Shown: positions 5,260-51,787 of the stretch, one piece after another | How positions within the stretch are numbered: the stretch's first letter is position 1 | How the letters are laid out: each line of letters begins with the position of its first letter | Assembly: GCA_028287085.1 (NCBI GenBank) | Contig: JAQBQI010000114.1 | Coordinates: forward strand, 6,755 to 70,754 | From: Myxococcaceae bacterium | Lineage (GTDB): Bacteria; Myxococcota_A; Polyangia; Polyangiales; Ga0077539 | Direction of reading: 5' to 3' | Length of the DNA stretch: 64,000 bases | The notes under the pieces: generated by a model | The model's input: only the letters and a program-made list of their open reading frames with translations | Told to the model about the DNA's origin: nothing | Database searches by the model: none | Made by a program: the position numbers and the translations under genes

Positions 5260-5399
5260 TTGGTCGGCGAGCGCGACGCGAGGTGCTCTCTCGTGAACTG
5301 GTTGGGGCGCTCCGCGCAGCGCCTCATGGAGGGGCGAACGTAGCTATCGACAGGGGCGTTCGTTGCCTATACGATCATGGGCATGAGGTTGGGGGCGCG

Positions 5400-22035: not shown

Positions 22036-22061
22036 CGGTAGCTCCGCTGCCGGGTCTCGCG

Positions 22062-23276: not shown

Positions 23277-23278
23277 GG

Positions 23279-30600: not shown

Positions 30601-32362
30601 GCCACGCGCGTGTCGACAGGGCGTAGACGTCCGCGATGTTGTCCGGAAGCAGCGTCTGGGGGTGGTCGTAGACCAGCGCGAGGCGCGGCGGCATCGCGGG
30701 CGGCTCGACTCCGTTCTTCAACCACAGGAGCGCCCTGACGACGCGGAAGGGGTGGAGAGGGAGGAGGCGCGCCGCGGTCGCGGTGGCACCCTCCGCGGCG
30801 AAGGCGAGGTCGAGGTTCGCGAGCCACTCGACCACCCGCTGCGACGGCGCCCCGCTCGGGTACACGGCGTTGATGAGCGATTGGTACGCGTCGACATAGG
30901 CCGACGCGCGATCCGGCAGCCGCCCTACGACGACGAGGGGGTGCGCGTCGAGCAGTGCAAGCGCGAGCATGACCCCCGCCTCGGGCCCGGACTCGCCCTC
31001 GCCGAGCGTCGCGTCCGGCTCGGACTGCATCATCCCGATCGTCGCGCTCACGAGGTCCGCGCGGGCGGCCAGGAAGCGATCAATCGGGTTTCGCAGCGCG
31101 GCGAGGTGCGCGGCCTCGGTCTCGATCCCGCTGTCGCGCCCGCGGAGCTTGGCGGTCGGAATGCGCCGCGTCGCCCTCAGTTGTGCGGTGTCGGACACCT
31201 CAATGCAGTCGCCGAAGCGGACCTGCCGAATCAGGAGTTCGGGGTCCTTGGAGGACAGCAGCGCGCGCAGCAGTCCGCGGGGCGTCGCCGGGCGCAGGAC
31301 GACTGAGACGCCGCCGTCGGTCTCCACGGAGAACGTCGGGTCGTCGTCGTCGGCCTCGCCGAGTTCGCCGGCGACTCGTCCGCTCTGGAAGGCATCGGGG
31401 AGGTCGTCGAGGAGAGCCTCGTCGGTGTACCCCTCCGAGCGGGGCTCCTCGCCTTCGTCGCCTCCGGGCTCCTCGCCTTCGTCCGCGGGCAGTGCCAGCG
31501 CTCGCTCGCCGGCGCGGAGGAGACGAGCGAACTCCACGGTGATCCCGCAGAGCTCGCCGGCATCCTCGGAGACGCCGGTAGCGAACTTGTAGGCGGCGTG
31601 CGCGAGTCGGGCCGCCTCCTTGATGGGGTCGTCGACGTCGGGCAGCAGCGCGCCGGCCAACGTCCGCTCCACGGCTGCGGTCTCCTCGCCGCTCAACGCG
31701 CTCAGCCGCTGCATCACGCGCTTGATCGCCCCCGCCGCCTTAACGCCGCGGAGCAGGTCGAGCTCACGTGCCGGCGTCGGCCCGGGGAGCGCTTTCGGCT
31801 GCCGCGCCGGGACGAGCCCCAGTAGCGGCAGCGCTCGCGCCTCGCTCGTGCTGCGCGCGAGCTCCGCGTATCGCGCGAGCGTGGTCACGCTCGTGTCCGC
31901 GACGCGCGTCCGCACCAGCCGGGCCCTGCGCGACGCGAGGTCCGCGAGCATCTGCCAGCCCGCGGACGCGGCGTACGCCTCCGCCACCTTCTCGGGCGTC
32001 ACCTCGGTGAGCACGTTCAGGCCCGCCTCCCCGGGCGTGGAGTCGGTGTTGAGGTACACGAGGAAGCCGATCGTCTCGCCCTCTTCCGCGCGCGCGTTCC
32101 GGAGGCGGGTGGCCTCCGCGGCCGCGGCGTGCGGTTCGAGCACGATCACCTGCGGCGGCAGCTCGACGCCGGGGCGCTTCGAAGATCCAATGATGAAGCG
32201 GGCACCGCTGCATCGCGGCTCGCGCGCCAGCTCGACCGCGGCGCGCACGCATTCGTCGAGGTGATCCTCGGTCGGAAACGCATGCGAGCGCAGACCGAAG
32301 TCGGTCGCGCGGAGCTCGTCGACGCAGACCTTGAGCGCGCGGAAGATGACGTCTTCGATCAT
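27665..32362 (-). CDS. Giant protein (1565 aa), DptH/DndH-like: N-terminal unknown domains, PD-(D/E)xK-like segment, Pro/Ala-rich linker, C-terminal HerA/FtsK-type ATPase
   Basis: Walker A is NVGITGTMGTGKTQL (28721-28750). Walker B is RRMILVDEADDF. Then GCGVILSTQF. A possible nuclease motif is RADLVLVEAAD..LRVVELKAR. The start forms an ATGA overlap with the upstream gene. Its size and its position after a P-loop protein and a ~470-aa protein match DptH. Confidence 0.75.
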   Translation of the reverse strand: MIEDVIFRALKVCVDELRATDFGLRSHAFPTEDHLDECVRAAVELAREPRCSGARFIIGSSKRPGVELPPQVIVLEPHAAAAEATRLRNARAEEGETIGFLVYLNTDSTPGEAGLNVLTEVTPEKVAEAYAASAGWQMLADLASRRARLVRTRVADTSVTTLARYAELARSTSEARALPLLGLVPARQPKALPGPTPARELDLLRGVKAAGAIKRVMQRLSALSGEETAAVERTLAGALLPDVDDPIKEAARLAHAAYKFATGVSEDAGELCGITVEFARLLRAGERALALPADEGEEPGGDEGEEPRSEGYTDEALLDDLPDAFQSGRVAGELGEADDDDPTFSVETDGGVSVVLRPATPRGLLRALLSSKDPELLIRQVRFGDCIEVSDTAQLRATRRIPTAKLRGRDSGIETEAAHLAALRNPIDRFLAARADLVSATIGMMQSEPDATLGEGESGPEAGVMLALALLDAHPLVVVGRLPDRASAYVDAYQSLINAVYPSGAPSQRVVEWLANLDLAFAAEGATATAARLLPLHPFRVVRALLWLKNGVEPPAMPPRLALVYDHPQTLLPDNIADVYALSTRAWPSARGVALAVRQGLGALWAMLAPRRLASSVSVELVDLPDATAAIDALCVEARRRFEDDADVGEGLHLEVRATFTDAKRAEAWRRPDPADLSVTAREALEATRGDGVSLGLPRRATELADDELCHLAIHAVDTPYARLAEDTGGRGGGLPLSYVPGPNGNVAAICVRGVSSLDSYDALLDGLDLARKPTGLDPSTRPADIGGAIVRALVARGGWPVKPTADTSLVSYGEVDGHVAAVICDGGALRRDLGAALERVTTSAKGLNVERMRAAVLSLYSCRSLLADLLEGLDERHLRGQIALTRAFVEARAGDANPTLPLSLDCPEGHRWARAVQRHFNVDRSRADLVLVEAADRDRAALGPLRVVELKARQKNATFATPAAREHLSTQARVAAARVRACFAAPANAEPKTALQRVAWMEASRQRLASEWRAVLTDFDRRLQERECPPLVVECWIVPEAPWTEDTRFEESHPMLDVQGEPVPGEAVLVRFFIMPPLDLGGPTPRVRRKPQGAGPSQGPAEPRAVASGGVTRTQPPTTTAPLASTAARAVDPPLPAAAPTAAPSAANTPPVQDGTPPAQPKPGASRRSDEGIVVRIGDVLQPGAMTPAIWTPNRVDRVNHYNVGITGTMGTGKTQLTKSLIAQLVGQAEFNPGGKPPGVLVFDYKGDYGLNTRDDFPRRIGATVLPPEGLPLNPLRPSAPQNRQDLTRMVYSFADTLLAIEPRIGRVQRDQIVKGVQACLADAGIDAADPKTFTRPFPTIKDLLDLLTKRDLAAGSPQSLLSELVDLGVFAEEAPEADIGALFDGINVIDLQPLAGMRPTIRAIIAFFMNAFYRQMLQGAEAPLAPGEAPGKELRQLRRMILVDEADDFLSLNIESLRYILQQGRSFGCGVILSTQFLSHFDQGGEELKASIGTWILHQMANVDRKSLSSLFSLNTRDEAVNIAAKIGALPKHTSLCRGLSTEGCRDRLVTVRDLAFKDLIAT

Positions 32363-33768
32363 TGGAGGCCCCCGTCGACCAGCACGACGTTGTCCGACTC
32401 CCGGCGCGCCAGTCCGAGCGTGACGAGGTGCTCGCGGTTAGCGCGGCCGACCTCGCGCAGCGTCGACGCCACGCCCCCGATCCCGAGGCGCCGCTCCGTG
32501 TCGTGCTCGTTCGGCCCCCCAAGCACGAGCCCCAGGCCCTCCGCCCGCGCGGCGAACTCGGGCCAGGGGACCGCGTGGCCGGGGTCGACGAGCGCGTGCG
32601 TGAGCGTCACGAGTTGACGCGGGCCCGGCTTGAAGTAGCGCTTGGCCCCGCCGCGCGCGTCGAGCGGGAACAGCCACCCGCCTGCAGCGCCCAGGTGGAG
32701 CGCGTGCGTGCTCGGCGAGTAGCGGTTGGCGTCGCCCCCTTTCTTGAGCGTCAGCCGCTCCTCCGCCGCGGTGTTGAGCGCGGCGCACGCGCGCTGCAGC
32801 GACTCCTGCGCGCGGGAGACCGCCTGCGCCATCGACGCCGCCTGGTCCGGCGGGCTCACGCAGAGCAGCAGCCGCCCCTCTCCCGCGTCGGGCCGCCAGC
32901 GCAGCAGCCGGACGCAGAGTACCAGGGTGGCGAGGTCGATCATCGCGGTGAGCGTCTCCGACTTCGACGCGCCGAAGCGGTGCCACTCGATCAACCGGCG
33001 CGCGAGCGTGCCGACCGTTTTGGACCACTGCGCCCAGCCGTCGCCGCTCGGCACCGGGAACGCCCCGACGAACTCGTCGGGCGAAAGCGGAGGGGCGGGC
33101 GATGTCGCCGAGCCGATGCCGAGCGCCACGGCGAGCGCAGAGTGCGGGTCATCGCTGCTGCAAGCGAGGTCGTAGAGGCCCGCGAGCGCGCGACAGCCGT
33201 CGGGCGTCGCGCTGAGCATGCCGAGGAATGTCGGCGCGTGCATTCCGCCGAGGGTGTGAGGGTCGTTGAATCCCACGAACGCGAGGCCGGGCGTCGTCGG
33301 GTCTGCAGCCCCGGAGACGGCCACCTTCCCGTCAGCGTTGAGGGCCGCAGCAACTGTGGCGTGCATGGCCGGGGTCAGCGCAAATCCTTCCTCGCTCGCG
33401 AAGTGGTCGCGCACGTGCGCCCGCCCGCGCTTCAGGAACTTCGGGTCGGCGGCGTGCGGTGGCGCGTCCAGGCGCAGTGGGCCGTCCTTCGTGCGCGTGA
33501 CGCAGAGAGCGCGCGCCTCGTCGCTAAGTTTCCAAGCCCCGGCGCCGAAGCGAGCGTCGAGCGCCTGCTTCACGGCGCCGACGTACGCCCGCAACGGCTG
33601 GTCCGTCGCGAGAAGGTGCGCCCACGGTGGGGCCGCGCCCGGCAGCAACCGGAGGAGTTGCATGACGCCGTTCGCGATGTGCACCGCGCGCACGTTGGAC
33701 GTCTGCACGAAGATCCCCCACGCGTCGTACTGCAACTTCTCCGGGGTCGCCCCGCCCTCACTCGCCAT
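32359..33768 (-). CDS. Hypothetical protein (469 aa), DptG/DndG-like by position and size
   Basis: It overlaps both neighbours (11 nt and 4 nt). It is a paralog of 39339-40787. The shared layout is a hydrophobic helix block, then ..LLLCVSPPDQ.. versus ..LVLALSPEQE.., then C-terminal ..GLARRESDNVVLVDGG versus ..GVARRLPDSGAEVGG. Confidence 0.65.
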   Translation of the reverse strand: MASEGGATPEKLQYDAWGIFVQTSNVRAVHIANGVMQLLRLLPGAAPPWAHLLATDQPLRAYVGAVKQALDARFGAGAWKLSDEARALCVTRTKDGPLRLDAPPHAADPKFLKRGRAHVRDHFASEEGFALTPAMHATVAAALNADGKVAVSGAADPTTPGLAFVGFNDPHTLGGMHAPTFLGMLSATPDGCRALAGLYDLACSSDDPHSALAVALGIGSATSPAPPLSPDEFVGAFPVPSGDGWAQWSKTVGTLARRLIEWHRFGASKSETLTAMIDLATLVLCVRLLRWRPDAGEGRLLLCVSPPDQAASMAQAVSRAQESLQRACAALNTAAEERLTLKKGGDANRYSPSTHALHLGAAGGWLFPLDARGGAKRYFKPGPRQLVTLTHALVDPGHAVPWPEFAARAEGLGLVLGGPNEHDTERRLGIGGVASTLREVGRANREHLVTLGLARRESDNVVLVDGGLQ

Positions 33769-35386
33769 CGGCGTTCTCCCATCGCACGCGAGTCTTGTTG
33801 CCGCTGCTCAGTTCGTCCGCCTGCACGGACAGCGGCGTCTGGTCGCCCGGGCGGGCGATCCGCACGCCGTCGCCGTGGGACACCGAGGGCGCTCGCGAGA
33901 GCCAACGCCGGAGCGTCAGCGCCTCGGACGGAGTGAGGTCGCCGCGCGCCCGCGCGTCGTCGTCGTAGAGCGCGCGGAAGAGGCGCGGCGTGACGCGAAG
34001 GGCGTCGTGCGCCGGCGCCGCGCCCGGCCGCTCAAAGCGGAGCCAGACGTACGGGGCGCGCCACACACCCTTGAGCGCCTCCGCCCCCGAGGGGTGGCAC
34101 CGAGGCAGCGCGATGCGGAGCGCGGCCGTGTCGACCGCGGTGCTCGCCACCGACGCGGCGCCCCCCTCCGCGCCCTGGTCGGTGCGCGCGCGGAGAGAGT
34201 CGTAGCAGAGCGTCTGCCACGCGGGGAACCACGTCCCAGCGCGCCACAGTTGGAGGGTCGCGTACACGCCGTCGAGGAGTTTCTTCGTAATGGCGCGCAT
34301 GTCGCCGACCCACCCCTCCGGCCGCTCCTGGAGGCGGTGCAACAGTTGGGCGTACGAGTCGTTGCTCGCCGCAGGTTGCAGCGCGGGGTCGTGCACCACG
34401 AGGGAGCGGACGACCGCCGCCCCCTCCCACTCGAAGGTCGGGTCGTCGGAGAGCGCTGCCAATCCGGGGAGGGCGCGCGCCCGCTGGGGGGCGGCGCCGA
34501 GGAGGACCTCTCGGCAGATGTGAGGGTGCGGGACGAGCGCTGGGTCGACCGCGGCGAGCGCGACGTCGAACTCTGCGGAGGCCCCTTTGTAATCGAAGAG
34601 GCGGGCGCCGACGGCGTCTCGGATCGACGGCGGTTCCGCGGAGTTCGCGCCGCGGCCGCCCGTGATGAGGAAGGCGATCAGCGACCACAGGTGGCGCATC
34701 GTGAGGTGCCCACCGCGCGACGCGACCTCCCCAAGGACGCGCTCGATCCAGCGCCGCACGTGGGGCGTGCGCAGTGCCTCCAGCGCGCACTCCGCGCACG
34801 CCCGCGCCCCGGGCGAAGTCCCCGAGAGGTCGACCGCGAGCGCCTTGTCGATCATCGCGTTGATTATCGATGGTGTGGAGGAGTCCAGCAGGCCGAGGTC
34901 CACGACGGCGACCTCGCCCGCAACGGCGTCGTCCCAGCGCGCGCGGAGTTGCGACTGCTCGACGGCGACGCGGACCAACCGCGCGAGGTCGTCGCCGCCG
35001 TCGCGCACCTGCGCGTGGAGGCGCTCCAACTGCCCGCGGTTAATCGCGAGGAGCAGGCGCTCGCCGCGCGCGAGCGCGGCCCGCAGATCGCCCGCGAGCG
35101 CCACGACGGGGTCTGCGCTCGCCGAGCGCGAGAGCGCCGCGGAGGCGTCGTAGATCGGGCGCAGGTTGCGGAGGTTCGCGGCGAGTACCGCGAAGGTCTT
35201 CCCGTCGCCCGCGTTGCCGGTCAGCACGACGTGCCGCGGGGCGACATCCGCATCGACCCGCTCGATGAAGCGCGCGAGCGGCGTCTCGACTCGTAGGGCC
35301 TCCCGGTGCGTCCGCGAGAGGTTCTCGACGACCGAGGCGTGCCCCCGATAGAGGTCAATCAGCAACTGGTACGTGAACGCTGTCAT
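33758..35386 (-). CDS. P-loop NTPase (542 aa), DptF/DndF-like; first gene of module X
   Basis: The N-terminus is MTAFTYQLLIDLYRG..RHVVLTGNAGDGKTF, with Walker A at ~35190-35230. It is a paralog of 37736-39346. Confidence 0.75.
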   Translation of the reverse strand: MTAFTYQLLIDLYRGHASVVENLSRTHREALRVETPLARFIERVDADVAPRHVVLTGNAGDGKTFAVLAANLRNLRPIYDASAALSRSASADPVVALAGDLRAALARGERLLLAINRGQLERLHAQVRDGGDDLARLVRVAVEQSQLRARWDDAVAGEVAVVDLGLLDSSTPSIINAMIDKALAVDLSGTSPGARACAECALEALRTPHVRRWIERVLGEVASRGGHLTMRHLWSLIAFLITGGRGANSAEPPSIRDAVGARLFDYKGASAEFDVALAAVDPALVPHPHICREVLLGAAPQRARALPGLAALSDDPTFEWEGAAVVRSLVVHDPALQPAASNDSYAQLLHRLQERPEGWVGDMRAITKKLLDGVYATLQLWRAGTWFPAWQTLCYDSLRARTDQGAEGGAASVASTAVDTAALRIALPRCHPSGAEALKGVWRAPYVWLRFERPGAAPAHDALRVTPRLFRALYDDDARARGDLTPSEALTLRRWLSRAPSVSHGDGVRIARPGDQTPLSVQADELSSGNKTRVRWENADGE

Positions 35387-35394
35387 CGGTGGCG

Positions 35395-35417
35395 CCCGCT
35401 CCCGCTCCCGCTCCCGC
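35395..35417. repeat. Tandem hexamer (CCCGCT)x3.8 immediately upstream of the module X start codon
   Basis: The sequence reads cccgct cccgct cccgct cccgc. On the minus strand this is GGGAGC repeats, that is, three consecutive GGAG Shine-Dalgarno-like motifs 9-30 nt upstream of ATG 35386. Confidence 0.8.
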
Positions 35418-35451
35418 GATTTCTCTTGCCAACAGTGGCCGGGCAGCTACC

Positions 35452-35474
35452 ATCGCCGATTCGCAGAGACTAGA
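35452..35474. promoter_or_regulatory. Palindrome in the divergent intergenic region (candidate operator)
   Basis: CGCAGAGA (35452-35459), the 7-nt spacer ctagagt, then TCTCTGCG (35467-35474). The arms are perfect 8-bp inverted repeats, located between the two divergent operons. Confidence 0.4.
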
Positions 35475-35633
35475 GTTCTCTGCGGGGACGGGTGCGCATT
35501 GTTCGCCGAAACCGTTGATTTTAGCGGTAGATCCACACACATCCCGGTCCAGGTCCGCGGACATAGGCTGACCAGGACTGTTCTTGAGATCGCGCGCGCC
35601 CTCCATCGCGGGGACTGGGATCGCGCGCGACGG

Positions 35634-37739
35634 ATGCAGCGCGCGCTCTCGGAGATCCTCGAGAGCGCGGAGGGCGAGCACGAGGAAGCCCGAGGCGAGA
35701 TCTACGCGTCGACCCTCCGCGCGAAGGCGCTTGGCACGGTGCTCGTCGACCTCGCGACGAGCGGGTGGCACATCAGCGTCGACGAAGGCAAGGTCTACGT
35801 CAGCGCCCCCTTGTGGTCCGCCGGCGCTTCCGGGCTCTCGCCCGAGGAGGTGCGCGCGGAGAAGGAGCGCGCGCGCGGGGCGATGCAGGCGCGGGTCCAA
35901 GACGAGATCGAGTCGGAGTCGACGCGCAGATTCATCCTCGACATGGAGCGCGCGGTGCGTGTGGAGGGCGGGGTGCGCTCGATCCGCTCTCTCCTCGCCG
36001 ACGGACCCTCGCTCGCGGCCGCCCTCCAGGAGCGCAGCGCTGAGGCGATCCGGCCCTACCTCCAGGTGGCCGACGGGGCCGCGGGGCGCGACCCGGAGAC
36101 GGGCCTGCGCCTCACTGACGTCTTCCGCTACATGAAGCTGTTCTGGTCCTTTCCGATGAAGTCGCCGCCGGGGAGGACGACGCCGTTCCTCGTTCGCGAC
36201 GCGGGGCAGCCGGGGCACCCGGTCTGCGGGCTGATCGCGATCGCGAGCCCGGTCCCTCGCCTCACGCCGCGAGACGCGGCGCTCGGCTGGACGCCCGCCT
36301 GGTTGGAGGCCGTCGTCCGCGCCCTGCAGTTCTCCGCTGCCGACCCGGCGCTGCAGGTCAGCGCCGTGCTGGCCCAGGCGCACGTCAGCGAGCGCGGAGG
36401 TCTCGACCCGTCGTCGCTCGTCGAGGACCTCTGCGCGCTGCTGCGCTTGCCGACGAGCCGCGCCCTTGAGGGCCTCGTCTCGGAGCTTCGAGCGCTCAGC
36501 GCCAAGGCGTGTCGCGAGCGCGCCGACGCGGCGCTCGGGGCCATCCTGAGCGACCTCCGCGGGGAGGTGGTCGATGCGCTCGGTGCGATCTCGTTCAAGG
36601 GCCTTGGCGTCAGCCGCGTCGATGCGCTGGCGAACCCCGCGGAGTCCGCCTCACGCATCGAGGCCATGAAGGCGGGGGCGTACAAACGCTGGCACGACTC
36701 CCGGCGCGTCGGCGCGGTGCGGACCCCGAACAAGCGGATCGACAAGGGCGCCGTCGAGGCGGCCCGGACGATGCGCGACGCCGAGCACGACCCGCTCTAC
36801 ATGAAGAAGCGCGTCACGCAGGCCGCGGCGCTCTTGCGGGCCTGGGAGGGGATCGCCCCGCGTGAGGGCGAGGTCAGTGCCGAGCGCCTGTTTGAACTCG
36901 CGCTCGGCCCCTCGCCCCGCGCGTCGCACCGGCTCTCGGGCGGCAACGGCGTCGCGCGCGGCCTCCGCGCCGCCTTGCTCCAGCGGCAGAACCGTTTCGT
37001 CGCGGCGCAGGTCGCCGACGTCTGCGTCTGCGGCGCGGTCCCCCCGTACGGGCCGCTGCTCGGGGGAAAACTGGCCGCTCTCATCGCGCTATCGCGCGAC
37101 GTCGCGGGCGCGTACCACGAGCGCTACGACGGCAAGGCCTCGGAGATCACCTCGCAGATGGCGGCGCGGCCCGTGAGCCGCCCCGCGGACCTGCTCGCGC
37201 TCACGACGACGAGCTTCTACGGCGTCGGGTCTTCGCAGTACGAGCGCCTCGCGCTGACCGCCGCGGGCGGCGACGTGCGGTGGAGGTTCGTCGGGTACAG
37301 CCGCGGCCACGGCACGCTTCACTTCTCCGCCGAGACCGTCGAGGCCATAGACCGCCTGCTGCAACTCGAGACGGGGCGTCGGCTCATCACGAGCCGCTTC
37401 GGCGAGGGTCCGTCCGAGCGCCTGCGCAAGATTCGCGACGGCCTCGAGCGGCTCGGCGTGAACCCCAACGTACTGCTCCAGCACGGGATGTGGCGGCTGG
37501 TGTACGTCGCGGAGCTCGCGCCCTCGGCGTGCCGCCCTGGGGGGCGCGGGGACGCCCCGCCGTGGCGCGCCGCGGGCCCATCCGTGGACGAGGTCGCGCG
37601 GCAGTGGCGCGCGCGCTGGTTGGGCCGTCGGCTCGCGAGCGCGCCCGCGTTGGTCGACGAGGTCGCGCGCTTCTCGCGCGACGACGCGATGATTGGCAAC
37701 CGCTTGCGGCGCGAGCCGCAGAGGGTGGGGAGATCTTGA
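35634..37739 (+). CDS. DUF4338-like (DruA-like) protein (~701 aa); first gene of module Y
   Basis: Blocks DVFRYMKLFWSFPMKSPPGRTTPFLVRDAGQPGHPVCGLIAIASPVPRLTPRDAALGWT, CGAVPPYGPLLGGKLAALI and TTTSFYGVGSSQYERL are present. The start is uncertain: the first ATG in frame is 35634, and the ORF is open from 35373. Confidence 0.7.
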   Translation: MQRALSEILESAEGEHEEARGEIYASTLRAKALGTVLVDLATSGWHISVDEGKVYVSAPLWSAGASGLSPEEVRAEKERARGAMQARVQDEIESESTRRFILDMERAVRVEGGVRSIRSLLADGPSLAAALQERSAEAIRPYLQVADGAAGRDPETGLRLTDVFRYMKLFWSFPMKSPPGRTTPFLVRDAGQPGHPVCGLIAIASPVPRLTPRDAALGWTPAWLEAVVRALQFSAADPALQVSAVLAQAHVSERGGLDPSSLVEDLCALLRLPTSRALEGLVSELRALSAKACRERADAALGAILSDLRGEVVDALGAISFKGLGVSRVDALANPAESASRIEAMKAGAYKRWHDSRRVGAVRTPNKRIDKGAVEAARTMRDAEHDPLYMKKRVTQAAALLRAWEGIAPREGEVSAERLFELALGPSPRASHRLSGGNGVARGLRAALLQRQNRFVAAQVADVCVCGAVPPYGPLLGGKLAALIALSRDVAGAYHERYDGKASEITSQMAARPVSRPADLLALTTTSFYGVGSSQYERLALTAAGGDVRWRFVGYSRGHGTLHFSAETVEAIDRLLQLETGRRLITSRFGEGPSERLRKIRDGLERLGVNPNVLLQHGMWRLVYVAELAPSACRPGGRGDAPPWRAAGPSVDEVARQWRARWLGRRLASAPALVDEVARFSRDDAMIGNRLRREPQRVGRS

Positions 37740-39346
37740 GCTACGACCTGCTGCTGAGCCTGTACTACGCGGACGCCTCGAACGCGGACCTCACTACCCA
37801 GGAGGAGCGCGAGCTCCTGCACGTGCGCACGCCCGTCGAGGGGCGCATCACGGCGGCGATCCGGGACGGCTTCGACGTCGTCCTCACCGGCAACCCCGGA
37901 GACGGCAAGTCGCACCTCGTCCGCACGCTCGGCGAGCGCGGCGATCTCGTCGGCGCGGAGGTGCTCCTCGACCTCTCCGCCATCCCGACGGGCGACGCGA
38001 TCGCCCGGTGGAAGGCGTGCCGCGCCGCCAAGCGAAGGTTCGTCATGTGCGCGAACGAGGGGCCCCTGCGCTCGTTCAACGAGGTCGCGAGCGCGGACGA
38101 GGCGCTGAACGCCTCCGCCTGGGAGCTCCGCCAGCAGCTCGCGCACCGCGTCGAGTCCGGCGAGGTGCCGACCAGGCCGGCCCGCGCGCTGCTCATCAAC
38201 CTCGCGGACCGAAACGTCTTGAGCGAGCCCCTGATCGCGGACGCGGTCGCGCGGGTGTGTCGCGACGCGTTCGTGCCCGACGTCGGCGTGTTCTCTGCGG
38301 AGTGCTCCGCAGCGCGGAACATGTTGCTCCTCCAACAGGACGCCCCCCGGCGGCGCTTCGCGCAGCTGCTCGCGCTGGCAGGCACGCGCCGCGGCGAGCA
38401 CGTGACGTTCCGCCGGCTCTGGCAGGCGATCTCGCTCGGCGTGACGGGCGGTAGGACGGTCGCGAAGCTGAAGGACGAGTCGAAGAACGACGCGGACGGG
38501 CCGCTCGGCGCGTCGCCCATCGACAACCTCGCCCGTCGTGCGGGGCGCGGCGTGCTTGTCGAGGCCGTGCGCCGGTTCGCGGACCCCGCGTGTTTCACCG
38601 ACCCCGACCTCGACGAGAGCCTCTGGCACACGGGGGCGCCGCCTAGCGGCGAATGGCTCTGCGAGGAGCCGAGCGCGGAGCACCCCGCGACGATGTGGGC
38701 GATGGGTCGCCGCGACGACGCGATCGACCAACTCAAGCGCTTGAAGCGCCTCGTCGCGCTGGCGCATGAGCGCGGCGACGAGCTGGTGCGGGCGATGACG
38801 CGCGCGACGGCGCGCCCGAGCGCGGTCGAGCCGCGCGCCCTCCTCGACGTCTCCCTCAGGGGGATCCGCCGGCTCTACTTGTCGCAGAGGGAGGACGCGA
38901 ACGCGCCGGAGTGGCTGCGCAGCGGGCTCCCGCTGTGGGTCGGATTCAGCTACGAGCAGGCGCCCGTCGAAGAGCGCCCCCATGTCGCGGTCGTTTCGCT
39001 CCCCGAGGACGAGTTCGAGCTCGTCCAGCCGACGCGCCCGGAGTGGCTCGGCGACGCGCTCGGGCCGCTCCCCGAGCGTGCGTGGCTGCGGCATAGGCGG
39101 TCCTCGACCCTGCTCCGCATCGATCCCGAGATGCTCGCGGCTCTGAAGGCGGCGACGGAGAGCTCGGGGCCACTGCCGATACCGGAGCCCGTCCACCGCT
39201 TCCTCGCGCAGCTCGCGGGCTGGGATGAGCTCCACGGCGAGCGGCCCCTCGGCGACGAGGCGTTCGCGGTGCTCTCGCGCCCGCGCGGCGAGCTCGAGGT
39301 CGACGGTCGCGTGCGGCTGCGCGTGGAAGGGGCGAGCTATGTCTAA
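37736..39346 (+). CDS. P-loop NTPase (536 aa), DptF/DndF-like; module Y
   Basis: A TTG start forms a TTGA overlap with the upstream stop. The N-terminus is (M)SYDLLLSLYYAD..FDVVLTGNPGDGKSH, with Walker A at 37885-37914. It aligns by eye to the start of the 33758-35386 product. Confidence 0.7.
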   Translation: MSYDLLLSLYYADASNADLTTQEERELLHVRTPVEGRITAAIRDGFDVVLTGNPGDGKSHLVRTLGERGDLVGAEVLLDLSAIPTGDAIARWKACRAAKRRFVMCANEGPLRSFNEVASADEALNASAWELRQQLAHRVESGEVPTRPARALLINLADRNVLSEPLIADAVARVCRDAFVPDVGVFSAECSAARNMLLLQQDAPRRRFAQLLALAGTRRGEHVTFRRLWQAISLGVTGGRTVAKLKDESKNDADGPLGASPIDNLARRAGRGVLVEAVRRFADPACFTDPDLDESLWHTGAPPSGEWLCEEPSAEHPATMWAMGRRDDAIDQLKRLKRLVALAHERGDELVRAMTRATARPSAVEPRALLDVSLRGIRRLYLSQREDANAPEWLRSGLPLWVGFSYEQAPVEERPHVAVVSLPEDEFELVQPTRPEWLGDALGPLPERAWLRHRRSSTLLRIDPEMLAALKAATESSGPLPIPEPVHRFLAQLAGWDELHGERPLGDEAFAVLSRPRGELEVDGRVRLRVEGASYV

Positions 39347-40787
39347 CCGCAGGAAGGTGGAGTACGCGAGCCTGCAGCGCGTGCTCATGACGGCCGAGGG
39401 GGACAAGCCGGGGGTGTTCGAGGAGCTGCTCGGGTTCCGGCCGTCCACTGCGAGCTTCAAGGGCGTGCACCTGATGAACGACCTCGCGCAGACGGTCCTC
39501 GGGGGCGCTCCTGCGCACGGCGGGAACTTCCTCTGCAAGGTCATCCGCCCTGACGCGGACGCGGCGGAACGCACCGGCGAGGCCGCCATGCGGAAGGACA
39601 AGGAGTTCAGCGCGCCGTTCGGTCGGGCCTTCCCGAAGGAGCTCGGTCCCAAGCGCGTGCGCGCGCTGCGATGCGCGGCGCAGCTCGTGACGAACTTCGA
39701 CGGGGGTCTCTACAAGGCCGGCGACAGCATGGCGAGCGGGCTCGTGACGCACAGGTCCCTGCTGGGGTTCGAGGGGTTTCGGCGCCTCAAGATCGGCCAG
39801 TACCTCGCGCAGACGCTCGCGGAGGACGGCCGCGCACGGCTCCGGTCGCTCTTCGTCGAGGACGGCGACCCGATCACTCGGGCGCTGCGCCCCCTGCTGC
39901 TCGATGCGCCGCTGGTCGACAAGGTCGCGCGGGCGGACCTGCCCGCCCCGGCCGCGTTCGACCTCGCGCTCGGACGGGGGCTCTCGACGCTGCTGGGCCA
40001 AGGGCTCAGCAAGCCCGTCGCGCTCCGCCTGCTCGCCCTCGCGGCGAGCCTGGGCGTGATCTTGAAGGTCATCGGCGTCGGCCGGGAGGGCGGCCGCCCC
40101 CTCGTGCTCGCGCTCTCGCCCGAGCAGGAGGGCCCGGTGATGTTGCTCCGAGAGGAGGCCGTGATCTCCCTCGAGCGCGGCTTCGAGGAGTTCTACGGCG
40201 CCGTCGCGGCGCGCCTGCCAGCGCACCCGGAAGGCCCCGGGATTTGGCAGCGCTCGAAGTCGGGCGGCCTTGAGTTCGAGGTGACGGGCGGCCTGCCCCT
40301 CGAGGAGGTCGCGGTAGAGATCCTCAACGCGGCGCGGAAGCTCGCCTTCAAGTCGAAGGGCGACGACGCGCAGGACGCCGCGGACGGCGCCGGGCAGACC
40401 GAGCGCGCGATCTACTGGCCCGAGCGCTTCGTCTACGGGCTCGGCCGCAGGACCGGGTGCGTGCTCCCGCGCGGGAACAAGGCGGGATGGGGCAAGCGTC
40501 TTGCGCTGACGCCAGAGCACGTCGAGGCGCTGGTGCTCATGGTCGTGCCCCGCGGCGAGACGATGCTGTGGAAGGACTTCTGGCGCGTCGTGCGGGACCG
40601 CTTCGGCGTCGTGGTCGGGGCGAACGCGTCCGCCGACGCGCGCGAGCTGCGCCAATCGGGCGTACCCCACCTCAACGTGCAGCACCTCGCTGCGAACGCG
40701 GACGCGCTCCTGGCACAGGCCGTCCGACGCGGCGTCGCGCGGCGCCTCCCTGACAGCGGCGCCGAGGTCGGAGGGACCCTCTCATGA
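39339..40787 (+). CDS. Hypothetical protein (482 aa), DptG/DndG-like by position; module Y
   Basis: ATG 39339 overlaps the upstream stop by 8 nt, and the 3' end forms an ATGA overlap with the next gene. It is a paralog of 32359-33768. Confidence 0.65.
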   Translation: MSNRRKVEYASLQRVLMTAEGDKPGVFEELLGFRPSTASFKGVHLMNDLAQTVLGGAPAHGGNFLCKVIRPDADAAERTGEAAMRKDKEFSAPFGRAFPKELGPKRVRALRCAAQLVTNFDGGLYKAGDSMASGLVTHRSLLGFEGFRRLKIGQYLAQTLAEDGRARLRSLFVEDGDPITRALRPLLLDAPLVDKVARADLPAPAAFDLALGRGLSTLLGQGLSKPVALRLLALAASLGVILKVIGVGREGGRPLVLALSPEQEGPVMLLREEAVISLERGFEEFYGAVAARLPAHPEGPGIWQRSKSGGLEFEVTGGLPLEEVAVEILNAARKLAFKSKGDDAQDAADGAGQTERAIYWPERFVYGLGRRTGCVLPRGNKAGWGKRLALTPEHVEALVLMVVPRGETMLWKDFWRVVRDRFGVVVGANASADARELRQSGVPHLNVQHLAANADALLAQAVRRGVARRLPDSGAEVGGTLS

Positions 40788-43700
40788 AGACCGCGGAGCT
40801 CATCGCGTTCGGAATCCGGGACGCGCTGCGCGCGTCCCCGAGGACCATCGGCGCGCACCTCAGCCCGATCGGCCTCTCGCCCGAGGACGTCGTCGCCGCG
40901 CTGCGCCTCGTCCGCAAGCGCCTCGGGTCCGGCCATTACCTCGTCGGCTCGGCTCCCGACATGCCCGACATCAGCGAGGACAGGCTGTTCTGCGCGCGCG
41001 ACGAGCGCGCGGCGGAGCGGGCCACCTTCTGGCGCAACCGCGTCCGCGTCGGCGATGGCGAGCGGCTCGTGTACGTGAGCGTCGAGGAGCACGGCAAGGC
41101 GAGCGGCCTGCTCGACTGCCTGGAGCCGGTGAGCGAGGAGCAGATCGCGGAGGCGTTCCTGAGCTGGTGCGACGACGAGGAGAGTGGGCTGCCCGCGGGT
41201 ACCGCCGCCGCGCTGCGGCAGGGCCGGGTCGTCGAGGGCGTGCAGCTCGAAGACCTCTGCGCGTTCGCGACTGCCTTCGAGCGGGACCCCGCCCGAGCCC
41301 GCAAGCCGTGGGAGGTGATCGGCAAGCATCTGCCACTCCTCTCGCTCGCGCGCGACTCCGCCCTCGGGGGCGACGACACCGCGGAGCGCCTTCGCAACAA
41401 TGCGAAGCTCGTGCGGGCGCTCGCGTCAGGCGAGGACCGCAGGCGGAGCACGGAGGGCGCGCTCGTCGAGGTCGAGGCGAAGCTGGTCAAGGCGTTCAAC
41501 GCGGGCGAAGACCTGCGGTCCGCGCTGGGGACGATCGACCTGGGTAGCCTGGAGACGTCTGGCATCGCACCGAAAGGGTCGAAGGGCGGGCCGCGCGCGG
41601 GCGGCAAGGGCGGCAAGGGCGGCAAGGGCGCGCCCGAGAAGAAAGGCAAGAAGGGTAGGCCGGAGCCCTCCAAGGGCGGCAAGCCGGGCCGCACGCCTCC
41701 CGAACCGGTCGTGGGCCAGAACGGCGCGTCGAAGCCGTCCGAAGGGGCCAACGGCGGGAAGCGCCCCGGTGGCGATGGAACAGAGCTCACCGCGCCGAAG
41801 GGCGGCCAGACGGGCTCCCAGCGTCCGCGCGCCGTCACAGCGCCGGCGCTCTCGCAGGGCGTCGAACTCCTCCTCGCCGCCCTGCTGGGCGGCGACGGCG
41901 CGCCAGTCGAAGCTAAGGTCCGTGCGGGCGCTAGGCAGGCGCTCGTCGCGCCCCCGAGGCAGACCGAGGCGCGACGCGGGGACATCGCCGCTGCGGAGGC
42001 GGAGCTCGCTGCGCCCCTCGCGGCGTGGCGGCAAGCGCGCGTGCAGCTCGTCTCTCAGGCGTCGGGGCTACGCGCGCAGAGCGTGACAGTGTCTGCCGCG
42101 CTCGTCGGCGCGCTGCCGCGACTGCTCGCGGACGGGGGCTGCGCTGCCGCGTTCGAGACCTTCGCGCACGCGACCGTAGCCCTGTACCTGGCCGCCCAGG
42201 ACGCATCGGAGCGCGCGATGCGCGAGGTGCTGGCGCTCGACACGGCCGCGGTGCGCGACGCCGACGGGGTCTCCGTGAGGGTGATCGGGCCGCTCCATCT
42301 GCTGTGGTTCGGTCAGGCGTTGGAGCGCAGCCGTCTGGAGTCGGAGGCGGCGTCCCTCAGCGAGACGGCGCGACGGGCGCTGGTGCGCGCGCGCTCCGCG
42401 GGTCCCACGTCGCCCGCTGAGTTCCCCGAAGGGGAGGGCGCCGACCTCGCACTCTCCCGTCCGGAGGACGGCCTGATCGTGTTCGAACGCGTCCCGGAGG
42501 TGGTCGAGCGCGCATCCCTTTCCGCCCTCGGCTCGCTGCTCGTGCGTCGGTACCTCGCGCTCGCGCCGCACGCGTCGCTCGGGTGTCGCGTCGCGTTCGA
42601 AGGGGAGGGCGCCGAGAGCTTCATCGACGGCGTGGCCGAGCACCTCATGAGCGACGACGGCCAGACGTCAGTCGAGGTGCTGTGCGAGCGCCCCCCGTCC
42701 CTCCGCGACGGCTCGGACGCCCTGCTGCTCGTCGGCCAAGGGCGCATCCGCCTCGGCTCGATCCCGATGCGACAGGAGGGTCTCGCGCAGGCGCGTCCGC
42801 ACATTGCGGTGCGGGTCCCGTCCAGTCGTCCGAGCCTGAGCGAGTCAGAGCCGTCTTCGATGGCGGTGCAGTCCATGGCCCCCGCGGTGTCTCCCGCGCG
42901 CACGCGCTTCGAGCTCCGCGAGCGGAGTCTTCGCATCGTGACCTCCGTGGAGGGCGTCGCGCACCTGGAGGCCTTCGAGGCGCTCCACGCGGCGGCGCGC
43001 GGGCGCAGGGCAACACGGGCGTTCGTGCTCGACGCGTCCGGCCTCGCGCTCCGGAGCGAGGTCGACGTGAGCCGCGGCGCGAGCGCGACGTGGCACGTGG
43101 TGATCGCGCCGAGCCTCGGGAACCGACCTCCCATGGGCGCGTTCCTACTCGCGCACGAGCGCATCGACGACCGCGCCGTCTGTGCGGTTCTCTCGCGCGA
43201 GGTCCGCGTTGCGATGCGGGCGGTCCAAGACGGTCTCGCAAGGGCAGGCCTCAACGAGGAGCAGCCCAAGCGCCTGAAGCCGATCGCAATGAAGCTCGCG
43301 CAGACCTGCGGCGGGGGGCTTCTCTCCTTGCGGAAGGACAACGTCGAACTCCTCGCAGGAGCGCTACTCTCGCTCGAACTGTCGCGCCGCATCGAGGGCC
43401 GCGGGGTCGTGGTGCCCGTCAGCGGACGCGGCTACGAAGCGCTCACCGGGGACGACCAGGATGGCATCGGGATGCAGGCCGCGTTCGGGATCGCCGACGG
43501 CACACTCCGCATCCTCGTGGGCGTCGCCACGCTCGACGCGAGCCTCGACATCGACCTCTCGGTCCCGCAGGTCGGCGGCGCCGTAGGGGCGCGGCTGCAC
43601 GCCGTCGTGTCGTCGCTGCAGGCGCTGCGGGGCGAGGACCTGCTGGCGCGGGCGGCACGCGACGCGGTCGGGTGGCTCGTGTGGCCAACCTTCGCAGGCA

Positions 43701-43903
43701 TGGAGGCGGCGGAGCGGCCGAGCGAACTCATCGCGGCCCTCTCGGACTGGGCGTCGGTGAAGGACGTCCGGATCGAGGTGCATGCCCTGCTGCCGCCCAG
43801 CGTCGTTGTTCCGAAGGGCAGACCGCCCAAGGTGTCGCGGTGTCCGTTCACCGCGTCGGTGATCGATGTCGCGCTGATCAAGCGGCTGCTGCTGTCGGCG
43901 TGA
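40784..43903 (+). CDS. Large protein (1039 aa) homologous to the N-terminal two-thirds of the DptH-like giant but without any ATPase motif
   Basis: The N-terminal block ..DERAAERATFWRNRVRVGDGERLVYVSVEE..GLLDCLEPVSEEQIAEAF.. aligns by eye with ..PHAAAAEATRLRNARAEEGETIGFLVYLN..GLNVLTEVTPEKVAEAY.. of 27665-32362. It contains a Lys/Gly-rich low-complexity linker. No GxxxxGK[ST] motif occurs anywhere in the protein. Confidence 0.7.
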   Translation: MKTAELIAFGIRDALRASPRTIGAHLSPIGLSPEDVVAALRLVRKRLGSGHYLVGSAPDMPDISEDRLFCARDERAAERATFWRNRVRVGDGERLVYVSVEEHGKASGLLDCLEPVSEEQIAEAFLSWCDDEESGLPAGTAAALRQGRVVEGVQLEDLCAFATAFERDPARARKPWEVIGKHLPLLSLARDSALGGDDTAERLRNNAKLVRALASGEDRRRSTEGALVEVEAKLVKAFNAGEDLRSALGTIDLGSLETSGIAPKGSKGGPRAGGKGGKGGKGAPEKKGKKGRPEPSKGGKPGRTPPEPVVGQNGASKPSEGANGGKRPGGDGTELTAPKGGQTGSQRPRAVTAPALSQGVELLLAALLGGDGAPVEAKVRAGARQALVAPPRQTEARRGDIAAAEAELAAPLAAWRQARVQLVSQASGLRAQSVTVSAALVGALPRLLADGGCAAAFETFAHATVALYLAAQDASERAMREVLALDTAAVRDADGVSVRVIGPLHLLWFGQALERSRLESEAASLSETARRALVRARSAGPTSPAEFPEGEGADLALSRPEDGLIVFERVPEVVERASLSALGSLLVRRYLALAPHASLGCRVAFEGEGAESFIDGVAEHLMSDDGQTSVEVLCERPPSLRDGSDALLLVGQGRIRLGSIPMRQEGLAQARPHIAVRVPSSRPSLSESEPSSMAVQSMAPAVSPARTRFELRERSLRIVTSVEGVAHLEAFEALHAAARGRRATRAFVLDASGLALRSEVDVSRGASATWHVVIAPSLGNRPPMGAFLLAHERIDDRAVCAVLSREVRVAMRAVQDGLARAGLNEEQPKRLKPIAMKLAQTCGGGLLSLRKDNVELLAGALLSLELSRRIEGRGVVVPVSGRGYEALTGDDQDGIGMQAAFGIADGTLRILVGVATLDASLDIDLSVPQVGGAVGARLHAVVSSLQALRGEDLLARAARDAVGWLVWPTFAGMEAAERPSELIAALSDWASVKDVRIEVHALLPPSVVVPKGRPPKVSRCPFTASVIDVALIKRLLLSA
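41600..41626 (+). repeat. Tandem 9-bp repeat (GGCGGCAAG)x3 encoding (GGK)3 within a Lys/Gly-rich linker
   Basis: The sequence reads ggcggcaag ggcggcaag ggcggcaag. The surrounding protein is GSKGGPRAGGKGGKGGKGAPEKKGKKGRPEPSKGGKPGRTPP (about 41570-41720). Confidence 0.85.
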
Positions 43904-51613: not shown

Positions 51614-51787
51614 GGACTCTCCTTCTTCGGGGCGAGAGGAAGGAGCGGGATGCTCCCGCTGGCTCACCACGAAGAGGTCGAGGAAGAACGATGGGTGCGC
51701 CCCGCTCCCGTGCCGTCGCTGCTTCTCGATGACGGTACTGGCGGAGGCGACGATCGAGGGGAGGGGGAAGATCGACCGGCCTCCCGA

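What the first reader, a model, noticed from the sequence alone, without database searches (positions are those of the whole stretch)
40784..43903. ATPase-less DptH-like paralog in module Y
The plus-strand module ends with a 1039-aa protein whose N-terminus aligns with the 1565-aa giant of module X. It has no Walker A/B motif anywhere, and no downstream gene supplies an ATPase or an EndoIII-like protein; the next ORFs are a doubtful 112-aa ORF and a lower-GC PD-(D/E)xK-like gene. There are three readings. Module Y may be a degenerating duplicate, it may borrow the ATPase of module X in trans, or it may be a distinct sensor variant. Functional interdependence of two mirrored paralogous modules would be novel.
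Basis: seen in the sequence. Interest (0 to 1): 0.6.

Follow-up and report, generated by a model that had tools for sequence, protein, structure and literature searches.

The report
Motor-less DndH-like subunit, conserved cassette
The 1039-residue protein is an intact, selected gene: a DndH/SspH-type giant with no ATPase motor and no nuclease motif, encoded last in a conserved four-gene DruA-F'-G'-H' cassette of Myxococcota that always sits beside a motor-bearing defence module.

Summary
Window 40784-43903 (+) is an intact 1039-aa ORF with GC3 0.89, an ATGA overlap with the upstream gene, and no Walker A or B motif. Its similarity to the 1565-aa giant (27665-32362, -) is not significant by BLASTP (E 0.96). 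Profile-profile comparison shows it is real and covers about 840 residues (96.6% probability, E 6e-10).

The gene is not a decaying duplicate. The family has 97 clusters at 50% identity. 55 of its 56 near-full-length members are 921-1202 aa and lack an ATPase. dN/dS against an 83%-identical ortholog is 0.21, the same as its neighbours.

The X and Y modules are ancient paralogs. The module is not ATPase-less, because F' carries a Walker A motif (GNPGDGKS).

"DptH-like" applies only loosely. NCBIfam found no DptF/G/H match for any of these proteins, and PADLOC found no match for the 1039-aa protein. Similarity to canonical DptH is a weak collinear motif trace around PLHP.

The cassette DruA-F'-G'-H' is the constant unit. 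X-type F-G-H (with a restriction-endonuclease (REase) motif and a HerA/FtsK ATPase) was seen only beside it, in 9 of 9 loci. In 5 other loci the cassette sits beside DruE or other partners instead.

The best reading is that H' is a motor-less, probably nuclease-dead DNA-recognition subunit that works with interchangeable motor and nuclease partners. This is a new variant of a known kind.

The parts
40784..43903 (+). H': the 1039-aa protein of the finding. It has an N-terminal alpha/beta plus helical region (aa 1-260). A Lys/Gly/Pro-rich disordered linker follows (aa 262-350, nt 41567-41833, net charge +14). The invariant GPLH motif is at aa 502-505 (nt 42287-42298). A Rossmann, methyltransferase-like region spans about aa 576-850. 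The C-terminal alpha/beta domain (aa 853-1039) lacks a D...ExK motif.
   Evidence: ORF and composition. Family and invariant residues. AlphaFold2 model m1288c1cc948e has pLDDT 84.7 and pTM 0.74. Foldseek top PDB hits are SAM methyltransferases, E 5e-3 to 0.3, probability up to 0.97. Linker charge.
39339..40787 (+). G': 482 aa counted from the ATG at 39339. Weakly SspG-like at its C-terminus. Overlaps F' by 8 bp and H' by 4 bp.
   Evidence: PADLOC SspG, E 3e-5. Orthologs of 443-482 aa occupy the same position in L001-L024. dN/dS 0.23.
37736..39346 (+). F': 536 aa from a TTG start. A P-loop protein with Walker A GNPGDGKS (nt 37889-37912), SspF/DndF-like. Overlaps the DruA stop codon by 4 bp.
   Evidence: Walker A. 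PADLOC SspF, E 8e-8. 27% identity to module X F, E 7e-8. The TTG start is shared with L005; dN/dS 0.11.
35499..37739 (+). DruA of module Y (PF14236/DUF4338, described as a GNAT acetyltransferase domain in PMC10853773). The likely TTG start at 35499 gives 746 aa. The mechanical ORF starts at 35373 and would overlap the start of X_F.
   Evidence: Pfam DruA 8.5e-31 and PADLOC DruA 2e-106. Orthologs are 719-758 aa. Sequence read.
35387..35498 (.). Divergent intergenic region between X_F and Y_DruA. It holds a sigma70-like promoter match at 35426-35453 (+) and a perfect 8-bp inverted repeat, CGCAGAGA-n7-TCTCTGCG, at 35462-35484.
   Evidence: Promoter scan: 1 match against 0.2 expected. Sequence read directly. 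Function not tested.
33758..35386 (-). Module X F: 542 aa, Walker A GNAGDGKT, SspF-like.
32359..33768 (-). Module X G: 469 aa.
   Evidence: Orthologs are 45-50% identical in L001, L003, L009, L012, L021 and L023.
27665..32362 (-). Module X H: 1565 aa. Residues 2-850 are homologous to H'. It has an invariant D929...E950-x-K952 restriction-endonuclease motif (nt about 29507-29578). A HerA/FtsK ATPase spans aa 1165-1565 (nt 27668-28870), with Walker A GTMGTGKT and Walker B MILVDE.
   Evidence: match to 7ES4 DptH C-terminal domain, E 4.8e-52. Invariant residues. Walker motifs. hhalign.
26583..27749 (-). 388-aa ORF; the true start is probably later, and homology begins near aa 40. It is a recurrent partner of the cassette. 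By eye it shows HhH-GPD/EndoIII-like motifs and a C-terminal Cys cluster, but this is unconfirmed.
   Evidence: Homologs of 49-60% identity directly follow H' in L006 and L024, precede DruE in L014 and L015, and occur in L004 and L012. A profile search against PDB found nothing.
24549..26561 (-). DruA of module X: 670 aa.
   Evidence: Pfam 1.2e-28 and PADLOC 2e-131. 33% identical to Y DruA.
5256..15303 (+). Druantia type I-like block with no DruA of its own. It comprises a 981-aa DruB/C-position protein (5256-8201), DruD (8192-9268) and DruE (9115-15303). A NERD-UvrD helicase follows at 15303-17957.
   Evidence: PADLOC DruD 7e-73 and DruE E=0. The 981-aa protein matches the 955-aa gene between DruA and DruD on Nitrosococcus pNWAT01, E 2e-41. 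No DruA upstream.

Best explanation
The 1039-aa protein (H') is a functional, vertically conserved subunit. It is a DndH/SspH-type giant that keeps the long N-terminal DNA-recognition core. That core consists of an alpha/beta domain, helical modules, a basic disordered linker and a Rossmann (methyltransferase-like) domain. H' has no HerA/FtsK motor and no D...ExK nuclease motif. It is the last gene of a translationally coupled four-gene operon: DruA (GNAT), F' (P-loop), G' and H'.

This cassette is the constant core of a defence locus restricted to Myxococcota. It is always placed head-to-head with, or next to, a module that does carry a motor or nuclease. In this window that module is the ancient paralogous F-G-H trio, whose H has a restriction-endonuclease motif plus a HerA/FtsK ATPase. 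In other genomes it is the DruE helicase, with the 388-aa protein or with an F-DruD fusion protein.

The likely mechanism is that the F'-G'-H' complex, with DruA, binds and evaluates DNA. In doing so it recruits, licenses or restrains the neighbouring motor/nuclease effector.

Shown here: the gene is real and under purifying selection; it is homologous to the N-terminal 850 residues of the X giant; it lacks ATPase motifs; the cassette is conserved; and the cassette has variable partners. Inferred: DNA binding, an inactive methyltransferase-like domain, a dead nuclease domain, and cooperation in trans.
For: Intact and selected:
- Intact ORF with coupled start and stop codons.
- Full-length homologs of 1013-1047 aa down to 35% identity.
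- 97 clusters at 50% identity among 1.8 billion representative proteins. 55 of the 56 members of at least 900 aa are 921-1202 aa and lack an ATPase.
- dN/dS 0.21, equal to its neighbours.

Homology to the X giant:
- hhalign gives 96.6% probability and E 5.7e-10 over residues 4-842 against 2-850, with invariant motifs aligned.

What the X giant has and H' lacks:
- The X giant has an invariant D929/E950/K952 motif and an ATPase 34% identical to DptH.
- The H' family has no conserved acidic or Lys residues in its C-terminal domain. Where the X giant has VVELKAR, H' has ILVGVAT.

Structure:
- AlphaFold2 model with pLDDT 84.7. The best PDB matches are SAM methyltransferases and no P-loop fold scores better than E 0.17.
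- This fits the DndH architecture described in PMC10853773: an inactive SF2 C-terminal domain, HTH, target-recognition domain (TRD), inactive methylase, REase and a captured HerA/FtsK domain.

Context:
- The cassette DruA-F'-G'-H' is present in L001-L006, L008, L009, L012-L015, L018, L020, L021, L023 and L024.
- X-type F-G-H is adjacent in 9 loci.
- DruE is adjacent in L002/L010, L014 and L015.
- A GHKL ATPase with a second DruA and a 388-like gene is adjacent in L004.
- A second DruA and a 388-like gene are adjacent in L024.
- Two X giants retrieved independently (P0019, P0020, 35% identity) also have the cassette head-to-head.
- PMC10853773 reports DUF4338/GNAT fused to the N-terminus of some DndF proteins. 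That matches the DruA-F' gene order here.
Against: No experiment supports any interaction between the modules, and defence genes cluster in islands regardless of function.

Most loci were retrieved through H' itself, so 'X only with Y' rests on only two independent, diverged cases (L021, L023) plus close relatives of the window.

Loci without X-type F-G-H are on contigs of limited length, so a copy elsewhere in those genomes cannot be excluded.

The dead-nuclease reading of the C-terminal domain is not statistically supported (hhalign E 0.36).

The methyltransferase-like hits are weak (E at best 5e-3), and the tool does not report which residues matched.

The cassette has its own enzymatic domains (the F' P-loop and the DruA GNAT) and could therefore be autonomous.

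Similarity to canonical DptH is weak: pairwise E 0.0016 and 16% probability around the PLHP motif.
Confidence: 0.55

Rival explanations
1. The Y cassette is an autonomous defence system. H' and G' sense DNA, F' senses nucleotides, and the DruA GNAT (or F') is the effector, for example by acetylating a host or phage target to abort infection. Its position next to module X or DruE reflects ordinary defence-island clustering.
For: The cassette keeps the same four genes while its neighbours change. It carries two potentially active enzymatic domains: the Walker A motif in F' and the DruA GNAT (PMC10853773). That paper proposes such N-terminal DndF fusions act as backup effectors.
Against: In every locus with readable upstream sequence, the divergent or adjacent partner carries a motor or ATPase: an X-type H, DruE, or a GHKL ATPase. 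The gap is usually short, about 50-370 bp. X-type F-G-H has not been seen without the cassette. The 388-aa gene sits on the X side of the locus in this window but on the Y side in L006 and L024. The window's DruB/C-like, DruD and DruE block has no DruA of its own.
Confidence: 0.25
2. The Y cassette is a catalytically dead paralog that restrains module X. It would act as an immunity or dominant-negative complex occupying self DNA, taking the role that phosphorothioate modification plays for canonical DndFGH.
For: PADLOC found no dnd or ssp modification gene among the ORFs scanned across the window. X-type trios were found only with Y, whereas Y occurs alone, which is the pattern expected of a toxin and its keeper. 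H' lacks nuclease and motor motifs. PMC10853773 proposes a dominant-negative role for the inactive methylase domain of DndH.
Against: The cassette also accompanies DruE loci that have no X nuclease. Canonical DndFGH often occurs without dnd modification genes (PMC10853773). Nothing here tests toxicity.
Confidence: 0.12
3. H' has a catalytic activity of its own that motif searches miss. Candidates are an active methyltransferase, or a new nuclease built on the invariant residues H505, H673, D191, R202 and N206.
For: Sixteen columns are invariant across 50 diverse members, including two histidines, one aspartate and the WRN triad. A Rossmann, methyltransferase-like fold was detected.
Against: No GxGxG or (D/N/S)PP(Y/F/W) motif is conserved across the family. 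H505 and H673 align to residues also conserved in the X giant, which has a separate nuclease motif. No enzyme family was hit in Pfam, NCBIfam or PDB.
Confidence: 0.06
4. H' is a degenerating or truncated duplicate of the module X giant, that is, a pseudogene.
For: It lacks the two catalytic domains that its paralog has.
Against: The ORF is intact. Family members have a conserved length of about 1000-1100 aa across 97 clusters. dN/dS is 0.21. No ATPase or nuclease remnant lies downstream. The X/Y divergence predates the split of the sampled Myxococcota lineages.
Confidence: 0.02

Closest known systems
DndFGH / DptFGH (phosphorothioate-associated restriction; domain analysis in PMC10853773)
   Same: The gene order F (P-loop with Walker A), G, then giant H, with overlapping start and stop codons. 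The ATPase of the module X giant matches the DptH C-terminal domain (7ES4, E 4.8e-52; hhalign E 8e-58). That giant also has a D...ExK nuclease motif before the ATPase, as DndH does. H' shows weak collinear motif similarity to DptH: LGL.D...RL.(A/E)N near residue 190 and PLHPL near residues 505 (H') and 640 (DptH). DUF4338/GNAT is known to be fused to some DndF proteins.
   Different: H' has no HerA/FtsK domain and no nuclease motif. NCBIfam found no DptF/G/H match for any gene here. PADLOC DndH models match only the ATPase of the X giant. PADLOC found no dnd modification gene among the ORFs scanned. DruA is a separate gene. Two paralogous trios sit head-to-head.
SspFGH
   Same: F' and module X F match PADLOC SspF (E about 1e-7). 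G' matches the C-terminus of SspG (E 3e-5). A 1538-aa protein (P0112) whose FtsK-type C-terminus matches PADLOC SspH shares the H' N-terminal domain (E 7e-5 against the whole library).
   Different: SspH carries an FtsK-like C-terminus (PMC8092258) and H' does not. H' does not match the PADLOC SspH models. No sspABCD genes were found.
Druantia type I (DruABCDE)
   Same: A DruA (PF14236) gene leads the operon. DruE is the direct divergent neighbour in L002, L014 and L015. DruD and DruE, plus a DruB/C-position homolog, lie 25 kb upstream in this window without a DruA of their own. L002 encodes a fusion of an F-like P-loop domain and a DruD-like domain directly upstream of DruE.
   Different: F', G' and H' are unrelated to the DruB/C-position protein (hhalign probability 0.15%) and gave no PADLOC DruB, DruC or DruD match.
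'HerA/FtsK capture' systems (concept from PMC10853773)
   Same: That work shows different DndH proteins acquired HerA/FtsK domains from several sources on a constant N-terminal core. H' looks like such a core without a captured motor.
   Different: In the passages I searched, that paper describes the eight-domain DndH core, including REase and HerA/FtsK, as constant. My term searches of it found no mention of a motor-less form.

Membership tests
DptH/DndH | Matches a curated DptH/DndH model (NCBIfam DptH; PADLOC DndH). | tested here: not met
   H' had no NCBIfam hit at E<=0.1 and no PADLOC hit at E<=0.01. The X giant matches DndH models only over residues 1167-1563.
DptH/DndH | C-terminal HerA/FtsK P-loop ATPase. 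| tested here: not met
   No Walker A or B motif. No ATPase family hit. 55 of 56 long family members lack one. No P-loop fold among the Foldseek hits scores better than E 0.17.
DptH/DndH | Active PD-(D/E)xK restriction-endonuclease domain before the ATPase. | tested here: not met
   No conserved D...ExK motif in the H' family. The X giant has an invariant D929/E950/K952 and canonical DptH has D1091/E1109/K1111. Whether the H' C-terminal domain is a dead nuclease fold is unresolved.
DptH/DndH | DndH-specific N-terminal multidomain core: inactive SF2 C-terminal domain, HTH, beta-sandwiches, TRD and inactive methylase. | tested here: inconclusive
DptH/DndH | Encoded after F (P-loop) and G genes in one operon. 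| tested here: met
   The gene order is F'-G'-H' with 8-bp and 4-bp overlaps. F' has a Walker A motif and a weak SspF match; G' has a weak SspG match.
Homolog of the module X giant (paralog claim) | Significant profile-level homology. | tested here: met
   hhalign gives 96.6% probability and E 5.7e-10 over about 840 residues.
Druantia type I | DruA together with DruB, DruC, DruD and DruE in one operon. | tested here: not met
   DruA is present. F', G' and H' did not match the PADLOC DruB, DruC or DruD models. DruD and DruE lie elsewhere in the window.
Pseudogene / decaying duplicate | Frame disruptions, variable truncation or relaxed selection. | tested here: not met
   Intact ORF, conserved length and dN/dS 0.21.
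Phosphorothioate-dependent restriction | Linked dndABCDE or sspABCD modification genes. | tested here: not met
   PADLOC scans of ORFs across the window returned no Dnd or Ssp modification protein. Genes elsewhere in the genome could not be checked.

The most novel reading that the evidence does not exclude
The two mirrored modules form one obligate system. In it, the catalytically dead, motor-less paralogous complex (DruA-F'-G'-H') is the self/non-self licensing or targeting module. This module can be plugged into interchangeable effectors: the X-type nuclease plus HerA/FtsK giant in this window, and the DruE helicase in other genomes. That would link Dnd/Ssp-type restriction and Druantia type I mechanistically, and would explain how a DndFGH-like nuclease is controlled without DNA phosphorothioation.
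Probability: 0.3. Interest if true: 0.7.

Novelty: new variant of a known kind. Interest (0 to 1): 0.55.

Why it matters
DndFGH and SspFGH are described as fixed trios whose giant subunit always carries a nuclease and a DNA pump. How Druantia type I uses DruA is unknown.

This locus shows a conserved version of the giant with neither nuclease motif nor pump. It is always encoded with a DruA acetyltransferase-like gene. It is always beside some other motor: a full paralogous trio or DruE.

If the two parts work together, it would be a natural case of a split sensor and effector built from paralogs. It would also give a testable bridge between two poorly understood defence families, Dnd/Ssp restriction and Druantia. 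Finally, it would offer a clean system for asking what the N-terminal 850 residues of DndH-type proteins do when no nuclease or pump is attached.

Tried and rejected
- Pairwise BLASTP of the two giants and of the G pair was not significant; profiles were needed.
Ortholog dN/dS was used instead.
- Sequence searches of H' and of its 50-sequence profile against PDB found nothing.
- The first AlphaFold2 model (11 sequences, pLDDT 65) was too poor to use. The second (50 sequences) was usable.
- hhalign of the H' C-terminal domain against the nuclease regions of the X giant and of DptH was not significant.
- H' is unrelated to the Druantia DruB/C-position 981-aa protein.
- The locus scan with the 50-sequence alignment failed because no stretch was conserved enough. 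The metagenome scan gave only three short loci.
- The 388-aa protein's 'EndoIII-like' label could not be confirmed by a profile search against PDB or by Pfam, PADLOC or NCBIfam.
- A stand-alone HerA-like ATPase at 51788-53323 was considered as a missing motor and rejected. It lies beyond the integrase, is only remotely similar to the X giant's ATPase, and is not conserved near other cassettes.
- The HerA gene downstream in L002 is likewise not a recurrent neighbour.
Full report
**What is there**

The window is about 72% GC and comes from a Myxococcaceae metagenome-assembled genome. The exact protein is on record as JWM10_732 on a 96-kb contig. The ORF at 40784-43903 (+) encodes 1039 aa. Its ATG overlaps the stop codon of the upstream gene (ATGA). 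Its third-position GC is 0.89, like its neighbours. It has no Walker A pattern, no GK[ST] and no Walker B pattern. Pfam, PADLOC and NCBIfam found nothing in it.

**The surrounding genes form two divergent modules**

On the minus strand, module X reads:
- F (33758-35386, Walker A GNAGDGKT).
- G (32359-33768).
- A 1565-aa giant (27665-32362).
- A 388-aa ORF (26583-27749).
- A DruA homolog (24549-26561).

On the plus strand, module Y reads:
- DruA (likely 35499-37739).
- F' (37736-39346, Walker A GNPGDGKS).
- G' (39339-40787).
- The 1039-aa protein H'.

The three junctions in module Y overlap by 4, 8 and 4 bp.

Further upstream on the plus strand lie a DruB/C-position homolog, DruD, DruE and a NERD-UvrD helicase (5256-17957). 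That block has no DruA of its own. An integrase at 45636-46679 marks the island edge.

**Is H' related to the 1565-aa giant?**

BLASTP alone says no (E 0.96). Profiles say yes. An 11-sequence H' profile against a 5-sequence profile of the giant gives E 1.6e-5 over the first 190 residues. A 50-sequence H' profile gives 96.6% probability and E 5.7e-10, with H' residues 4-842 aligned to giant residues 2-850. Residues invariant in both families line up: the WRN/RxRN triad, PLHP, a PH/H motif and a Trp.

The giant then continues with two features that H' lacks. One is an invariant D929...E950-x-K952 restriction-endonuclease motif. The other, after a low-complexity linker, is a HerA/FtsK ATPase that matches the DptH C-terminal domain (7ES4, E 4.8e-52).

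At the position corresponding by eye to the giant's RVVELKAR, H' reads RILVGVAT. That alignment is not statistically supported, so a 'dead nuclease domain' remains an inference.

**Is it decaying?**

No. Close homologs are 1013-1047 aa and align end to end down to 35% identity. A profile search of 1.8 billion representative proteins finds 97 family clusters. 55 of the 56 members of at least 900 aa are 921-1202 aa with no ATPase. The single exception, P0112, is a 1538-aa protein whose FtsK-type C-terminus matches PADLOC SspH; it shares only the N-terminal domain with H'.

dN/dS against the 83%-identical ortholog in L005 is 0.21. The giant's N-terminus gives 0.23 and the other six genes 0.11-0.23. 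No remnant of an ATPase or nuclease lies downstream.

The X and Y pairs are ancient paralogs: F 27% identity, G E 0.31, DruA 33%. Each protein is closer to its orthologs in other Myxococcota than to its paralog.

**How DptH-like is it?**

Only loosely. NCBIfam found no DptF/G/H match for any of the six F, G or H proteins. PADLOC gives weak SspF hits for both F proteins and a weak SspG hit for G'.

I fetched a canonical DptFGH locus (Massilia plasmid, L007) and built a 17-sequence DptH profile. Against it, the X giant matches only through its ATPase (E 8e-58). H' gives three weak but collinear segments. The best surrounds the shared PLHPL motif (pairwise E 0.0016, 16% probability).

The second AlphaFold2 model is good (pLDDT 84.7, pTM 0.74). 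Its best PDB matches are SAM-dependent methyltransferases (E 5e-3 to 0.3, probability up to 0.97). No P-loop NTPase scores better than E 0.17.

This fits the DndH architecture proposed in PMC10853773: an inactive SF2 C-terminal domain, HTH, beta-sandwiches, a target-recognition domain (TRD), an inactive methylase, then REase and a 'captured' HerA/FtsK domain. The H' family conserves no SAM-binding or catalytic methylase motif. The same paper identifies DUF4338/DruA as a GNAT domain that is sometimes fused to the N-terminus of DndF. That matches the DruA-F' gene order here.

**Context survey**

The four-gene cassette DruA-F'-G'-H' recurs in every locus with enough sequence. All loci are from Myxococcota: Sorangium, Polyangium, Corallococcus and metagenome-assembled genomes.

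X-type F-G-H sits head-to-head with the cassette in the window and in L001, L003, L005, L009, L012, L020, L021 and L023. Two of these, L021 and L023, were retrieved independently through 35%-identical X giants, and they too have the cassette.

Elsewhere the neighbour differs:
- In L014 and L015 it is a 388-like gene followed by DruE.
- In L002/L010 it is a 1167-aa fusion of an F-like P-loop and a DruD-like domain, followed by DruE.
- In L004 it is a GHKL ATPase, a second DruA and a 388-like gene.
- In L024 it is a second DruA.

The 388-like gene directly follows H' in L006 and L024.

So the cassette is the constant unit. The motor-bearing partner varies. The 388-aa gene and the second DruA move between the two sides of the locus.

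The sampling has limits. Most loci were found through H' itself, and the contigs are short.

**Interpretation**

The data reject a pseudogene. They favour H' as a motor-less, probably nuclease-dead DNA-recognition subunit of a DruA-F'-G'-H' complex that works with a neighbouring effector. In this window that effector is the paralogous nuclease-plus-pump trio.

Whether the cassette activates, targets or restrains that effector cannot be decided by sequence. Nor can sequence decide whether the cassette is instead autonomous, with DruA or F' as its effector. I rate cooperation at about 0.55, autonomy at 0.25, restraint at 0.12, a cryptic enzymatic activity at 0.06 and decay at 0.02.

**Novelty**

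My searches of the held literature found no description of a motor-less H subunit, of mirrored paralogous F-G-H modules, or of a Dnd/Ssp-like trio linked to DruE. PADLOC v2.0.0 has no model for H'. This is a new variant built from known parts, not a new kind of system.

Noticed in passing
window 5256-15303 (+): A Druantia type I-like block (981-aa DruB/C-position homolog, DruD, DruE) has no DruA gene next to it. The only DruA genes in the window belong to modules X and Y, 10-25 kb away.
   Followed up: partly
window 26583-27749 (-); L006 8348-9409; L024 10919-11890; L014 3559-4515; L015 861-1847; L004 1-947; L012 14815-15819: The 388-aa protein is a recurrent partner of the cassette. It sometimes directly follows H' and sometimes precedes DruE. 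By eye it has HhH-GPD/EndoIII-like motifs (LFRLLVA..FQRR.D, W[RK].S.KIAAM, ViDSNVD) and a C-terminal Cys cluster, but no profile hit to any solved structure or Pfam family.
   Followed up: partly
L002 1236-4739 (-): A 1167-aa ORF fuses an F-like P-loop N-terminus to a DruD-like C-terminus (PADLOC DruD 4e-8). It lies directly upstream of DruE and head-to-head with the cassette. This is a physical link between F-type proteins and Druantia.
   Followed up: partly
P0055 (1134 aa, from the representative library): The N-terminal part matches DruA (PADLOC 3e-22, residues 116-298) and the rest matches H' profile positions 242-1040. This is either a DruA-H' fusion or a gene-calling artefact.
   Followed up: no
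window 41567-41833 (H' aa 262-350) and the X giant aa 285-345 (about nt 31330-31510): The disordered linker of H' is Lys/Gly/Pro-rich with net charge +14, and is positive in 39 of 50 family members. The equivalent stretch of the X giant family is acidic (-6 to -18).
   Followed up: partly
window 18478-24214 (-): Between the DruE block and module X lie four genes: a CARF-like protein, a Ser/Thr kinase fused to an ORC/CDC6-like ATPase (835 aa), a DNA methyltransferase and a ThyX thymidylate synthase. One X-giant ortholog (P0019, 1864 aa) carries protein-kinase domain matches (Pfam Pkinase) in the same polypeptide.
   Followed up: no
window 35426-35484 (+): A sigma70-like promoter match (TTGCCA-16-TACCAT) is followed by a perfect 8-bp inverted repeat, CGCAGAGA-n7-TCTCTGCG. 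Both lie in the 112-bp gap between the divergent X_F and Y_DruA genes.
   Followed up: no
window 44620-45447 (+): A lower-GC (0.61) 275-aa ORF has a GDID...CEIKASK (D...ExK-like) motif and sits between H' and the integrase. It has no family hit and is not conserved next to other cassettes.
   Followed up: partly
window 50615-53323 (-); L004 13450-14616: A sigma54-activator-like AAA protein (48% identical to one just downstream of H' in L004) lies beside a stand-alone HerA/TraD-like ATPase, outside the integrase boundary. It is probably unrelated to the cassette.
   Followed up: partly
L011 (Polyangium fumosum DSM 14668) 1-12073: The cassette appears disrupted. Only the last 110 aa of F' and H' from residue 351 onward are detectable, and about 5.5 kb of unrelated sequence sits where DruA and F' should be.
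   Followed up: no
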